From Mizuhopecten yessoensis (lineage: Eukaryota), in NCBI RefSeq assembly GCF_002113885.1, contig NW_018408872.1, forward strand, positions 111,739-169,959: DNA of 58,221 nucleotides, given 5' to 3'. How positions within the stretch are numbered: position 1 is the stretch's first letter; the number at the start of each line of letters is the position of its first letter. The position numbers were made by a program. Below are positions 52,967 to 58,221 of the stretch, piece after piece.

Positions 52967-55900
52967 GACCTTAAAGTCCAGGTAAGCATCTAGTGGCTCG
53001 GCGTTGAACATTTTGAATTAAATCAATATGTTTGTATTTATTTGGATACCAGACTGCACTTGCATAATCAAATTTGCGACCGACAAAAAAAATGTATAAA
53101 GGTATTAATATATTTATGTCCATCAAATGAAAGGTTCTTCTTAGCATGTCACACATTGAGTTGGCTTTCTTCACTTTTTTCGCTTATGTGATTTTCAAAA
53201 TTTAGGTCTCACTAGTTGTAGTTAGTAGTTCTGTATCATTAAGTTTATATGTGACACGATAACTCTCTATAGTGCATGTGTTTGCGCTTATCGTGGTGCA
53301 TTTTCATAAGCCAATCCTCAATCCACTAGCACATGCTATCCAGGTCTCGTTGCAATATCTTTGAATCTTCATCCTTGCATGGTTATTACTTTAAAAACTT
53401 TAGTATCAATGAATAATTTAGGAAAACAGAAAAAAAGCTAGGTGGAGTATCTATGATTATAAAAAAATAATTTACTTCATTCAGAGACATATAAAGCCAT
53501 AGTATGTATGTCTCTGGTCGCTTTAACATGGCTTTTAAAAACATAATTACAACTGACCACGTATGTACGTACGTGAATTCGGTGACTTCGTGTGTCAAAA
53601 TAGTAAACGTACGAGTCACTGTGGTGTCAGGTATTAGATCAACGCTCACATAATGAATTGTTCGTTAACTTTTATCAATAATATTGCATGCAAAGAATAT
53701 TACAAGCAAAGAAAAGGCAATGCCCCGGAATGGTGACAGTACCCATTGCCTTCCTCACCTTGAAGAACGTTCAACATTAACAAAACCAAAAGCGAGGTAT
53801 TGCAAAGTGAGGTACAATCTTTCAGCTTTAAATCACAGTTACTAACCTCGTCTGTCAATCATATTATGGGTATATTGACAGACGAGGCTAGTACCTGTGT
53901 TTAAATTGGGAGTCGGCGCTATTATATAACTGAATTATGCAATAGTGTCGTACTGTTCAATGTTAGGTGATAAAAGATGTACACTGAACCTGGGCAATTA
54001 GGAAATGCATGGCCAGATAATGGTCAGATAATGACCAGACTTGACATTTGACGTAAAAAGTCCTGTGTGATCAAAAGGATAAATACACGACACAAGTGCG
54101 CGAATGTAGGAACTTTAGTGTTTTATTGATTACCAAATGATAACGATAGTGTAGCAGGTGTGTATTAAATTAAGTTGTTTCCGTATTATTTTATTCAAAG
54201 ATTAAAACGGATACTTTTAACGACATGAGCCTAGCAGTGCTGTGTGAGCTTTAGATAAAACGGCATTTCACCGAGATACTGTTTTGCCAATCCTCGAAAT
54301 TCCAGGGGTTACGCTACGTTATCTGCACTCTTGGAAAATGTAATAAAAAATTGAAGGCTCTTTACGAACCACCTTGTCGATAGGTCAAGATTTTCAAAAA
54401 CAGATGCTTTTTCCAATAATAGCTTTTGATAAAACGTGATCTGAGATTTAGAACAGACTAATAAAAAATGAAATTCGTCCTCTACTTCAGAGGGGGAGTT
54501 ACACTGTTTACAATATCTACGTTCTCTAGGTATATTATTATACCTTCCAACTTCTACAGCCAAAGAATGTGTAGATGGACGGATTCGAGTTAAACAAATG
54601 CGATATTTCATTGGTATATATACTTTGTGAGGTAAAATTGTAATGATTCTCCAAAATCAATGATATTTTTATGCAATAAACATTTTGGAGATTTTTCCAC
54701 TGAGGCCCTTAGGAATTGTATGCCTTGATAAAAAATTCTTTGTTTTATCAATGGTAATAACACATTTTGCTGAGAAATACATGGATTATTTACCATCCAT
54801 ATTAATCCTGATACACCAAACATCACTAAAACATAGATTATTCAATTCATCTGTTACTGCTTTAGACCAGTTGAAATCATTTTTACTACAATATTTTAAT
54901 AAAAATCTATAGGAAGTGGATATGATACAATTTTCAGAATTTAAGATCTTAAACCAATATTTCATCATTTTACTTTTCTCATCCAAACTAGAGGTAATCG
55001 TCCCAATTCAAGATATACCATGTTGTTATTGGCCGATTTCTTCACTTTTAGATTTTTTTTCACAAAAATGTAAATGTACATGTTCAATCTGCATACACCA
55101 AATTTCACTTGCATTTTTTTTTTTAATTTGTGAATATATTGTGATATAACATTCCCGCATAATGTTTAGCATTGTACCAGTCAATGTACGTTAGAAAATA
55201 TAACAACAGATATTATATGTACAATTACCTTTTTTAAGCTATTATCGTTACTGTTGACACATGATAACAGGCACGGGATGTGATTGAAATTAAGAAAAGC
55301 AGAAGGCTGTGTGTGTATAGATTATGAATATTACTAACGCCGTCACGCGCAGGAAAATCACACACGCGATCTCAAGTAAACCCTTAGAATACATATTTCG
55401 TAAATTATACGTTGGTGTCCCTAATCCTATCCCTACCTCTTTTGCTGTAACCCCATCTTTAACTTTAAAATGTTCCAGGCTATTGGGTGACACATTAAGT
55501 TTGTGCATATATTTATTTGTTACGGAAAGGACGTAAGTAAGTTCAAATAATTTTGTCCAATCCATTTGTCCTTTGTCACAATAAAAATATTTAAACTAAA
55601 CTACATATTTTATTTCACATTCGTCACCAAATCTGGCCGCTTTTCANTATTTGTACTCTCCCAAGGGAGAGTGGGCCGTTCCCGGAGGTACTGCAATACC
55701 GGGCCAACCCGTGGCAAGAGCGGAGCAAGCCCCTGACATCTCACCTAAGTCCAAAAATCAGTTTAATATCGAAGTACCCCGGTGGGGTACGTATCAGATA
55801 TTAAGCTGATAAGAACAGATACTACACTTTGATCTTAGCCAAAAGGCCGAGAAGCGATACCAAATAAGATTTAGAAATACATTATAAAGTAATCATTAAA

Positions 55901-58221
55901 CTTTCTAATACGGGTGAGATGTCGATTAGAATATAGCACAGTAAATGCTTCAAAACCCTGTAGTTCTTCATTACAATAGTAACCAGGTAAAAATATTGGA
56001 TATCTCATTATATTATTGATAATGTTGCCAGCTTATTTTTTATATAAACAAGTATGATTTGCTATAATATGCGTTTCAGCGTCTACAGTTTCCATAATCT
56101 CTCCACTACTGACGTTATTGAGTTATCTCCCATGAACATGAACATAGAGGTGTGCTGCGGAGTTATTAGGTCATAGGAGTGTATTGATAAACGGAAGTAG
56201 GAAGTACATCCCTAGTTGAAAGTCCAATGTAGGGAGACAGTATAACAATTTCCGCATATTCTAATGTTTAATAATAAACTGATGAATTTTGTATGTTTAT
56301 TATTGACAGAATAGTGTGTTCTCTCAATATTAAAGTATTTCAAAGCAATCCAGGCATTAATTCAGTTATTTTTTATCAATGAGTCAAATGTGTCCATTTT
56401 TCTGTACTTCATGAAACCGGTTACCTATTTCACTACTGTGAAGTTTTTCAAGAAATATAACTCTTCCATGCAATTACTATGTGTATATGGTTTTATTATA
56501 AAGCGTCAATTTTTGTTCGTTTATAGATAATTTATTTTACACAATTTCAGCGTTTATTAAATTGATATACATTAATGCAATACTAATCTATGGAAGTATA
56601 AAATTTATAGACATCATTTTGCAAAGAATTGTGTCTTTCGGGTTTTTTTCAAAATTCACTCCTTTTTACATAAATTTTTATTTAAAATCCTTAAAATTCT
56701 GACAACCTATATTTTTTTTTGTGGCAGAACATTTTCTTTACTTCAAAGCAATAAAACTACAAAATTTGAAGAAAATCTACTGAGAAATGGTGACACAATC
56801 CTATTACCTTAATCGGATCAAGCAGGGATGTGTACACATTTAAGATGTTGCATTATGGTTGACTACATACACTGATACAGGGACATTTATAAATAGTTAG
56901 ACTACGTTAGAGTGATTCCAACACCCATTGCCCTTGTACATATGAACCACTAATGGAACTGATGTATTGATATTGATAATTTTATGCCAAATGTATTTGC
57001 GCAATTCTAATTCGTTAAGGGAAATAATTTGCTAAACGAAATAATAATTCAAAAAGTAGATCCACTTATTCTTTGTTGGAAATCAATATTTGAATCAGCA
57101 ACAACAACAGCAACAAAAATATTTTAAATCGGAATAACAGTTAATAAAAATAAAGAAAAACAATCTAACTTTATGAGAGAGAAAAAAGGAGAAAAAAAAA
57201 GAAAAAAACCTAATGTTGGATCAATCTGAAGTAACCTAAATATTAAGATATTTGTACAGAAGGGTTATTTGAATAACTAATCATATGCAATACATTAAAT
57301 ATGTATATATGTATGTATATGGCAGCAATTATAATGATAAAAAAGTAATATTCATAGGTGAAAGACATGACTCCGATACCACGCATGGACTTATGTTAAT
57401 GGGAGATAACCCAAGAACCACAGTAGATGAGAGATTATGGAAACTGTAGACGCTGAAACGCATATTAGGTAGGGATATGATTAGGGACACCAACGTATAA
57501 TTTACGAAATATGTATTCTAAGGGTTTACTTGAGATCGCGTGTGTGATTTTCCTGCGCGTGACGGCGTTAGTAATATTCATAATCTATACACACACAGCC
57601 TTCTGCTTTTCTTAATTTCAATCACATCCCGTGCCTGTTATCATGTGTCAACAGTAACGATAATAGCTTAAAAAAGGTAATTGTACATATAATATCTGAA
57701 AAGTATATGCTACTTTATACATTTCAAACATATTTAGACATCAAATATGACATTAGAAGAACCGCTGCTAAAAATGTTGTGATTTTGGGCATATAGAAAA
57801 AGTGGTCGTTTTTGGTGGCGAATGTGATCAAAATAATGAATCCCGAATTCGTTCTTATCGCAAGATTTTTTCCATCGCAAAATAACACGCTTGTTGCTTT
57901 GTTTATATTCCAGATGTTAATATCAGATGAAAGAGAAACGTTGCACGTTTCAAAATGTCAATCAATGATGACAACCTGTTCCGTCGGTGGAAGGAGTGTA
58001 AACAGGATAACAAAGTCCACAAACTGTACATCGTATGGATGTATAGCACATTACACAAACTATTGACCTATATTCACTTTAACATGCTACGCGTATGAAG
58101 AAAAAAAACCCAAAAAGCATTGATAGTTATGTTTAAACAATGTATTCAATATACAGATGCCGAATATAAGTTTATCATGCATACCTTCTGTGTAATAGTC
58201 ATGAGGCAAAAAAGTGAGAAA

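What the first reader, a model, noticed from the sequence alone, without database searches (positions are those of the whole stretch)
55207..57698. U2 snRNA gene mirrored by an inverted copy of its locus that lacks the U2 gene
Seen: the left side reads A(55207-55438)-[626 bp with U2 and PSE]-B(56065-56139). The right side is the reverse complement of A joined directly to B, with a 1-nt overlap at 57467. A is 231/232 identical. The 39 nt of B nearest the junction, which hold the SPH-like motif, are identical; identity then falls to about 80% and fades. Inference: an old divergent U2 gene pair was homogenised by gene conversion up to the distal promoter element, and one member then lost its U2 body and PSE. 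Alternative: a foldback element carrying a U2 gene, although no TSD is visible at 55207/57698. The arms could also let the U2 cassette invert.
Basis: partly seen in the sequence, partly recalled or inferred. Interest (0 to 1): 0.65.

Follow-up and report, generated by a model that had tools for sequence, protein, structure and literature searches.

The report
U2 gene beside its gutted mirror-copy
A normal-looking U2 spliceosomal RNA gene lies 1.3 kb from an inverted partial copy of its own flanks that lacks the 626 bases holding the gene and core promoter; this is most likely the leftover of a duplicated gene pair and is ordinary genome wear.

Summary
A full-length U2 gene lies at 55666-55858 on the minus strand (Rfam 188 bits). 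Arm A (55207-55438) recurs inverted at 57467-57698, 231/232 identical. Block B (56065-56139) recurs inverted at 57393-57467. In the right copy B joins A directly with a 1-nt overlap, so 626 bp are missing.

Identity has two tiers. There is 1 difference in 270 nt, then 7 in the distal 36 nt, then no similarity (Fisher P 1.3e-6; 0 of 5000 permutations). I found no U2 relic on the right, no target-site duplication and no other copy of A or B in the 58 kb.

Best reading (about 0.45): an older head-to-head duplication of the U2 locus was homogenised recently, then one copy lost 626 bp by end joining. Whether this was a deletion or an insertion cannot be decided from one window. The "SPH-like" label did not pass a motif test. 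A PSE-like motif sits at -59..-42.

Copy number genome-wide and read support could not be checked. The window looks like a mollusc's, not human. Interest is low: a new member of a known kind.

The parts
54336..55112 (-). 5'-truncated tail of a non-LTR retrotransposon ORF2 (the part C-terminal to the reverse transcriptase). It is context only. Its 5' break lies within 95 nt of arm A's outer edge.
   Evidence: 4817 library proteins at E<=1e-3; all 10 listed hits of >=400 aa (10 of the 150 listed) carry RVT_1, and one also carries the AP endonuclease; 7 of 7 tested hits map only to 54336-55112 on the minus strand.
55207..55438 (-). Arm A, left copy. It lies 228-459 nt downstream of the U2 3' end, in the U2 sense.
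   Evidence: 231/232 identical to 57467-57698 inverted. GC 0.371; 10 CpG against 8.0 expected.
55439..55665 (-). U2 3' flank, 227 nt, absent from the right copy. It holds a single N at 55647, which I left as it is. It also holds the 41-nt stretch 55604-55644 that weakly matches 57798-57838.
   Evidence: (pair I3).
55666..55858 (-). U2 snRNA gene, full length. The branch-point-binding and Sm-site stretches align to the family consensus.
   Evidence: RF00004, 188.3 bits, model positions 1-192/192.
55859..56064 (-). Proximal promoter region, 206 nt, absent from the right copy. It holds a TATA-like octamer at 55881-55888 (-30..-23) and a PSE-like 18-mer at 55900-55917 (-59..-42).
   Evidence: the PSE pattern, recalled from memory, gives 9 matches at up to 3 mismatches (7.99 expected), and 1 of the 9 lies here on the U2 strand; positions relative to +1.
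56065..56103 (-). B39: the 39 nt of B next to the junction (-207..-245). It is identical in both copies.
   Evidence: 39/39; positions.
56104..56139 (-). Distal part of B (-246..-281). It shows older or otherwise diverged homology.
   Evidence: 29/36. The 7 differences include two tandem double changes. JC distance 0.225.
56140..57392 (.). Unique inner spacer, 1253 nt, GC 0.288. It has no internal symmetry, no Rfam match of note and no Pfam-bearing ORF.
   Evidence: 195 of 200 shuffles reach the observed score.
57393..57428 (+). Distal part of B', right copy.
57429..57467 (+). B39', right copy. It joins arm A' directly, and position 57467 is shared by both.
57467..57698 (+). Arm A', right copy.
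57798..57838 (+). Borderline 41-nt match to the U2 3' flank. It lies 100 nt outside arm A' and is not collinear with the arms. It remains unexplained.
   Evidence: I3: 73% over 41 nt; score 32 against a shuffle maximum of 30, 0 of 200; 28.3 bits, E 0.036, no better than the best chance hits of neighbouring queries.

Best explanation
The left side is an ordinary, probably active, Pol II-type U2 snRNA gene. It has a PSE-like element at -59..-42 and a TATA-like element at -30..-23.

The right side is a dead partial partner. The proposed history has three steps.
1. An older inverted (head-to-head) duplication of the U2 locus. It left the ~20%-diverged 36 nt at the far end of B.
2. A recent homogenisation of about 0.9 kb, from B39 through the promoter, U2 and 3' flank to the outer end of A. 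Most plausibly this was gene conversion seeded on the selectively conserved U2 body.
3. Very soon after, loss of 626 bp (core promoter, U2 and 3' flank) from the right copy by non-homologous end joining at a 1-nt overlap.

The right copy now does nothing for splicing. Its only plausible activity is structural. Two 232-nt arms, 99.6% identical and 2028 nt apart, can recombine and flip the segment that carries U2 with its promoter, or provoke further deletions.

Shown: the anatomy, the two age tiers, the junction, and the absence of TSD and of other copies in the window. Inferred: a former second U2, conversion as the homogenising process, deletion rather than insertion, and any inversion.
For: - The U2 gene is complete.
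- A PSE-like motif sits at the canonical distance. It is 1 of 9 window matches and falls at -59..-42 on the U2 strand. A TATA-like octamer sits at -30..-23.
- Right copy = B + A with 626 nt missing and a 1-nt overlap.
- Identity steps at 57429: 1/270 against 7/36, Fisher P 1.3e-6, 0 of 5000 permutations. The 36-nt block is real homology (P about 5e-11). Two ages are therefore needed.
- 39 nt is too short to be homogenised on its own. B39 and A were thus either parts of one copied tract (about 897 nt on the left) or already adjacent. This is inference.
- Background, from passages I read. Multi-copy snRNA families are reported to evolve in concert (PMC4291461). Inverted paralogue pairs are thought to be kept alike by gene conversion, and long inverted repeats are prone to deletions that stabilise them by creating asymmetry (PMC1803023, Discussion).
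Against: - There is no trace of a second U2 on the right at E up to 10.
- Polarity is open. The same picture arises if 626 bp were inserted on the left.
- No ~80% zone continues outside arm A. Homology stops dead at 55207/57698 (134 of 200 shuffles reach the observed score). The tract would have to run exactly to the edge of the old duplication.
- Conversion between flanks that are only ~80% alike needs a conserved seed. I assume this was the lost U2 body.
- B39 was not shown to be a promoter element.
- A borderline match to the U2 3' flank lies outside A', where this model does not predict it.
- Genome-wide copy number of A, B and the cassette is unknown.
Confidence: 0.45

Rival explanations
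1. Insertion, not deletion. An inverted repeat of contiguous B-A existed first, without any U2. A 626-bp fragment carrying a complete U2 gene with its core promoter and 3' flank was then captured at a break in the left arm by end joining.
For: - The junction has a 1-nt overlap and no TSD, which fits break capture as well as deletion.
- There is no U2 relic on the right.
- The 626 bp hold everything known to be needed proximally: PSE-like motif, TATA-like motif, gene and 3' flank.
Against: - It needs a rare event: capture of an intact, exactly gene-sized unit. Deletions of this size are a very common event (general knowledge).
- An old B-A repeat at ~80% identity would have had no conserved seed for the recent homogenisation.
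- No second copy of the cassette is seen in the window. The rest of the genome could not be searched.
Confidence: 0.15
2. One complex repair or replication event. A template-switching copy (fork stalling or microhomology-mediated break-induced replication) read arm A, jumped to B and was pasted in inverted 1.3 kb away. On this view the right copy never held a U2 gene.
For: - There are three abrupt breakpoints: 57392/57393, 57467 and 57698/57699. The internal one has a 1-nt overlap.
- Homology ends sharply on the outer side.
- Two of the seven differences in distal B are tandem double changes. Such changes are typical of error-prone synthesis (general knowledge).
Against: 7 differences in 36 nt against 1 in 270 is far above any error rate known to me for such synthesis. 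The distal 36 nt look older, not miscopied.
Confidence: 0.12
3. A mobile unit. The 897-bp block 55207-56103 would be a DNA element carrying U2, and the 270-bp right copy its internally deleted, non-autonomous derivative. Alternatively, the whole of 55207-57698 would be a foldback element.
For: - The two ends of the recent block match 8 of 10 as terminal inverted bases. P is about 8e-4 at a fixed register, but I noticed this post hoc.
- Internal deletions with microhomology are how non-autonomous elements arise (general knowledge).
Against: - There is no TSD at either unit or at 55207/57698.
- The sequence just outside the B39 end is itself homologous between the copies (29/36). Two independent insertions would not give that.
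- No transposase-like ORF appears. Pfam gave 0 credible families for 9 ORFs in or near the region.
- There are no further copies in 58 kb.
- The arm fold is unremarkable (z -1.45 and -0.04).
Confidence: 0.08
4. Assembly artefact. The right copy or its junction would be a misjoin, for example of haplotypes or of a short repeat.
For: The window carries 6 single-base N. A 270-nt near-identical repeat could mislead a short-read assembler.
Against: - Foldback artefacts give perfect palindromes. This one has a 1253-nt unique spacer, an asymmetric 626-nt gap and a ~20%-diverged end.
- No reads were available to test this.
Confidence: 0.08

Closest known systems
Concerted evolution of multi-copy spliceosomal snRNA genes
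   Same: Paralogous snRNA loci within a species are kept alike, flanks included, and copies are born and lost. PMC4291461 (passage read) says so, citing Pavelitz 1995/1999, Mount 2007 and Marz 2008. I did not read those four papers.
   Different: Only one U2 gene survives here, and the partner is reduced to flanks. Homogenisation is inferred from a single step in identity, not from several genes or species.
Inverted-repeat paralogue pairs kept alike by arm-to-arm gene conversion (C. elegans divergent and convergent pairs, PMC1803023; human Y palindromes, PMC3723533)
   Same: A head-to-head layout, near-identical arms and a unique spacer. Deletions that create asymmetry are said to stabilise long inverted repeats (PMC1803023: abstract and Discussion read; PMC3723533: search listing and start of abstract only).
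   Different: The arms here are very short (232 nt, against kilobases) and carry no gene on one side. No cross-species comparison was possible, so active maintenance is not shown.
Pol II snRNA-type promoter (PSE about -55, distal enhancer about -220, 3' box). Features recalled from the vertebrate and sea-urchin literature, not from a call.
   Same: A PSE-like 18-mer at -59..-42 and a TATA-like octamer at -30..-23. B39 lies at -207..-245, where vertebrate distal elements sit.
   Different: No SPH/Staf match in B at up to 3 mismatches. The octamer-like word at -206..-199 matches only 6 of 8 by eye. The 3' box was not tested. Promoter rules for this animal group are unknown to me.
Foldback elements and internally deleted non-autonomous DNA transposons
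   Same: Inverted terminal arms, and an internal deletion with a microhomology junction in one copy.
   Different: No TSD, no transposase and no other copies in the window. The flank next to one 'end' is homologous between the copies.

Membership tests
U2 spliceosomal snRNA (Rfam RF00004) | Covariance-model score above the curated gathering score, over the whole model | tested here: met
   188.3 bits against 46; model positions 1-192/192; not truncated.
U2 spliceosomal snRNA (Rfam RF00004) | Conserved 5' end, branch-point-pairing stretch and Sm site | tested here: met
   The alignment shows these consensus stretches matched letter for letter. Which stretch does what is recalled.
U2 spliceosomal snRNA (Rfam RF00004) | The gene is expressed and assembled into snRNP | not testable with these tools
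   No transcript data.
Pol II snRNA-type promoter | PSE about 55 nt upstream, on the gene's strand | tested here: met
   The recalled PSE consensus at up to 3 mismatches gives 9 window matches (7.99 expected). One of the 9 lies at -59..-42 on the U2 strand. The match alone is at chance level; its position is what counts.
Pol II snRNA-type promoter | Distal element with SPH/Staf and octamer motifs | tested here: not met
   0 of 10 window matches to the recalled Staf consensus lie in B or B'. The octamer-like word matches only 6/8 by eye. The consensus is a vertebrate one, so failure does not exclude a lineage-specific element.
Inverted gene pair homogenised by gene conversion | Two gene copies in inverted orientation | tested here: not met
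   There is only one U2, and no relic on the right at E up to 10.
Inverted gene pair homogenised by gene conversion | A tract of near-identity bounded by older, more diverged homology | tested here: inconclusive
   Met on the B side (1/270 then 7/36). Not met on the A side, where homology ends abruptly.
Foldback / TIR DNA transposon | Target-site duplication flanking the inverted ends | tested here: not met
   No word in register. The longest shared word is 4 nt and off register.
Foldback / TIR DNA transposon | Multiple dispersed copies | tested here: inconclusive
   No other copy of A, B, the cassette or the spacer in the 58 kb. The rest of the genome could not be searched.
Retroposed snRNA pseudogene | The copy starts at the RNA's 5' end, lacks the promoter, and is often 3'-truncated or A-tailed | tested here: not met
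   The right copy holds only flanks and no RNA-coding sequence. The left copy has 281 nt of upstream sequence.

The most novel reading that the evidence does not exclude
The 897-bp block 55207-56103 is a small mobile DNA unit that carries a complete, promoter-equipped U2 gene between short terminal inverted bases (8 of 10). The 270-bp right copy is its internally deleted derivative. This would be a DNA-level vehicle spreading snRNA genes. A weaker variant is that the 232-nt arms make the U2 segment a naturally flipping cassette.
Probability: 0.06. Interest if true: 0.6.

Novelty: new member of a known kind. Interest (0 to 1): 0.2.

Why it matters
It matters mainly as a clean, small example of how snRNA gene families turn over. 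It shows duplication, homogenisation that runs into the flanks, and then loss of one copy by a simple end-joining deletion, all readable in 2.5 kb.

If the polarity were settled with a sister species, the locus would give a dated conversion tract about 0.9 kb long with one sharp end, in an animal group whose snRNA genes are little described.

It also flags a short inverted repeat that could cause a local inversion polymorphism or trouble assemblers. No new kind of system is indicated.

Tried and rejected
1. A relic of a second U2 on the right. Rfam at E up to 10 over 54000-58221 found none. The five other rows are sub-threshold chance-level matches.
2. Residual symmetry of the inner spacer, and homology of the outer flanks. 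Neither was found; 195, 127 and 134 of 200 mononucleotide shuffles reach the observed scores.
3. Other copies of A, B, the promoter, the 3' flank or the spacer in the window. None was found beyond chance-level words.
4. TSDs at 55207/57698 and at the ends of the recent block. None.
5. The arms as a structured RNA or hairpin element. z -1.45 and -0.04.
6. SPH/Staf motif in B. Not matched.
7. ORFs in and around the structure. Pfam gave nothing credible for 9 ORFs. The bacterial promoter/terminator scan is uninformative here: 18 found against 18.4 expected.
8. The left boundary caused by a retrotransposon splitting a longer arm. The LINE tail is real, but nothing elsewhere in the window matches 57699-58221, so I rejected this.
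9. The 41-nt match at 57798-57838 as a relic of the second gene's 3' flank. It is not collinear, and the 99 nt before it show no U2 similarity. I left it unexplained.
10. Naming the LINE tail through the search for homologous proteins. 0 hits among 44 candidates.
11. Literature. Six searches turned up no paper describing a U2 gene with a gene-less inverted copy of its flanks, and none on U2 gene layout in molluscs. That is a statement about these searches only. Supplements were closed and were not needed.

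Full report
**What is there**

The window is AT-rich: GC is about 0.28-0.43 per kb and CpG observed/expected is 0.53. It has six single-base N.

I do not take it for human. An RRM-bearing ORF at 46102-46635 (minus strand; Pfam RRM_1) has its single significant relative in a sea-slug protein named by NCBI (1 hit among 393 candidates, 71% identity over 19% of the query). 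The repeats are of an invertebrate kind. The species was not established.

Rfam finds one family above gathering score in the whole window. It is U2, at 55666-55858 on the minus strand, at 188.3 bits and over the full model. The conserved 5' end, the branch-point-pairing stretch and the Sm site align to the consensus.

Read in the U2 sense, the left locus has these parts in order:

| Part | Coordinates | Length |
|---|---|---|
| B | 56139 down to 56065 | 75 nt |
| Proximal promoter | 56064 down to 55859 | 206 nt |
| U2 | 55858 down to 55666 | 193 nt |
| 3' flank | 55665 down to 55439 | 227 nt |
| A | 55438 down to 55207 | 232 nt |

The right copy on the plus strand is B' (57393-57467) joined directly to A' (57467-57698). 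One base is assignable to either block, so 626 nt are missing.

A is 231/232 identical. The 39 nt of B nearest the junction are identical. The distal 36 nt are 29/36 identical. None of this is chance: arm A has E 4e-120, and P(29 or more of 36) is about 5e-11.

**Promoter anatomy**

A PSE consensus that I recalled from memory matches at 55900-55917 on the U2 strand, which is -59..-42. The match alone is at chance level for the window: 9 matches at up to 3 mismatches against 7.99 expected. Its position and strand are what make it credible.

A TATA-like octamer lies at -30..-23. B39 spans -207..-245, which is where vertebrate distal elements lie (recalled).

None of the 10 window matches falls in B or B'. 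B39 is therefore a candidate distal element by position only.

**Age structure**

I laid the right copy (306 nt) against the composite left sequence. All but one of the 8 differences fall in the first 36 nt.
- The split is 7/36 against 1/270, Fisher P 1.3e-6.
- The best change point is 57429.
- 0 of 5000 random placements of 8 differences reach the observed likelihood ratio.
- Jukes-Cantor distances are 0.225 and 0.0037.

Beyond B there is no similarity at all. Nor is there any between the two halves of the 1253-nt spacer, or between the outer flanks. In those three comparisons 127, 195 and 134 of 200 mononucleotide shuffles reach the observed scores.

So homology ends in a step followed by nothing on the inner side, and ends dead on the outer side.

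**What the right copy is not**

- It holds no U2 relic (Rfam at E up to 10 over 54000-58221).
- It is not a retropseudogene, because it consists of flanks only.
- It shows no TSD, either at 55207/57698 or at the ends of the near-identical block.
- A, B, the cassette and the spacer have no other copy in the 58 kb.
- No ORF in or beside the structure has a credible Pfam family.
- The arms do not fold better than shuffles (z -1.45 and -0.04).

**Surroundings**

Immediately left of arm A lies the 5'-truncated tail of a non-LTR retrotransposon, at 54336-55112 on the minus strand.
- The 115-aa ORF at 54309-54656 has 4817 relatives at E up to 1e-3 in the representative library.
- All 10 of the listed hits of 400 aa or more (10 of 150 listed) carry RVT_1 upstream of the matched tail, and one also carries the AP endonuclease.
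- 7 of 7 tested hits map only to that stretch.

The element's 5' break lies within 95 nt of 55207. I asked whether it had split a longer arm. Nothing elsewhere in the window matches 57699-58221, so I found no support for that.

**Most likely history (confidence about 0.45)**

1. An older inverted, head-to-head duplication of the U2 locus. It is now visible only in the ~20%-diverged distal 36 nt of B.
2. A recent homogenisation of about 0.9 kb, running from B39 to the outer end of A. I infer gene conversion seeded on the U2 body, because that is the only part that selection would have kept identical.
3. Almost at once, since there is only 1 difference in 270 nt, a 626-nt end-joining deletion with a 1-nt overlap that removed the core promoter, the gene and the 3' flank from the right copy.

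PMC4291461 (passage read) states that multi-copy snRNA genes evolve in concert. PMC1803023 (abstract and Discussion read) states that inverted paralogue pairs are thought to be kept alike by conversion, and that long inverted repeats suffer deletions that stabilise them by asymmetry.

What the structure can still do is mechanical. The 232-nt arms, 99.6% identical and 2028 nt apart, could recombine and flip the segment that carries U2 with its promoter. That would leave the gene intact. This is inference and was not tested.

**Weak points and rivals**

- Polarity is not decided. A capture of a 626-nt U2 fragment in the left arm gives the same picture (rival, 0.15). I rank it lower because it needs a rarer event, and because an old gene-less repeat would have offered no conserved seed for the recent homogenisation.
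- A single template-switching repair event (0.12) explains the three sharp breakpoints, but it does not explain 7 differences in 36 nt.
- A mobile unit (0.08) has one curious point in its favour. The two ends of the near-identical block match 8 of 10 as inverted bases (P about 8e-4, post hoc). Against it, there is no TSD, and the flank beside one 'end' is itself homologous between the copies.
- Misassembly (0.08) cannot be excluded without reads. The unique spacer, the asymmetric gap and the diverged end are, however, not what a foldback artefact looks like.

**Unexplained**

- A 41-nt stretch of the U2 3' flank (55604-55644) matches 57798-57838, which lies 100 nt outside A' and is out of order relative to the arms. 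It beats 200 of 200 shuffles in the direct comparison. Window-wide it scores only 28.3 bits (E 0.036), no better than the best chance hits of neighbouring queries.
- Arm A is not CpG-depleted: 10 CpG against 8.0 expected, in a window with observed/expected 0.53. This hints at a regulatory or unmethylated stretch.

**Limits**

- I did not use genome contigs, which holds bacteria and archaea only.
- The genome-wide copy number of A and B, other haplotypes, related species and read support all stayed unchecked.
- Six literature searches found no description of a U2 gene facing a gene-less inverted copy of its flanks, and nothing on U2 gene layout in molluscs.
- The primary papers on snRNA concerted evolution (Pavelitz 1995/1999, Mount 2007, Marz 2008) were seen only as citations.

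**Verdict**

The biology is ordinary turnover of an snRNA gene family. It is a new member of a known kind, and interest is about 0.2.

Noticed in passing
window 54336-55112 (-), with further pieces at 52449-53183 (-): 5'-truncated tail of a non-LTR retrotransposon ORF2, directly left of arm A. It belongs to a very large family: 4817 library hits, and the long hits carry RVT_1 (one also carries the AP endonuclease). The pieces at 52449-53183 look like another such tail, judged by eye only.
   Followed up: partly
window 55604-55644 and 57798-57838: A 41-nt, 73% inverted match between the U2 3' flank and a site 100 nt outside the right arm. It is not collinear with the arms, and its significance is borderline.
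   Followed up: partly
window 55207-55438 and 57467-57698: Arm A is not CpG-depleted (10 CpG against 8.0 expected; window observed/expected 0.53). It has a GC-rich core with CRE-half-site-like and E2F/ETS-like words (by eye, recalled), so it may be a regulatory stretch. Its inner end reads like a short degenerate telomere-type repeat.
   Followed up: no
window about 55655-55672 (-): The last 7 nt of the U2 gene and 7 nt of its flank form a perfect 7-bp palindromic stem with a 4-nt loop, right at the 3' end. It may be a 3'-processing hairpin. A single N lies just beyond it at 55647.
   Followed up: no
window 46102-46635 (-): Exon-like ORF with a lysine-rich region followed by the start of an RRM domain. 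Its only significant relative in the search is a sea-slug RNA-binding protein.
   Followed up: partly
window 46824-46900 (+): ARAGORN calls a tRNA-Val(CAC), but Rfam finds no tRNA match at E up to 1 in 46600-47100. It is possibly a false call or a tRNA-derived repeat. It lies beside a 20-nt tandem array at 47415-48012.
   Followed up: partly
window 18310-19321; 30990-31765; 47415-48012: Tandem arrays: 35 nt x 29 copies (91% matches), 157 nt x 4.9 copies, and 20 nt x 29 copies.
   Followed up: no
window 57955-58040 (+): A short ATG-started open frame that ends at a GT, following an AG-ended pyrimidine tract at about 57916. It may be the first coding exon of a gene that runs off the window, about 260 nt downstream of arm A'. 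This was judged by eye only.
   Followed up: no
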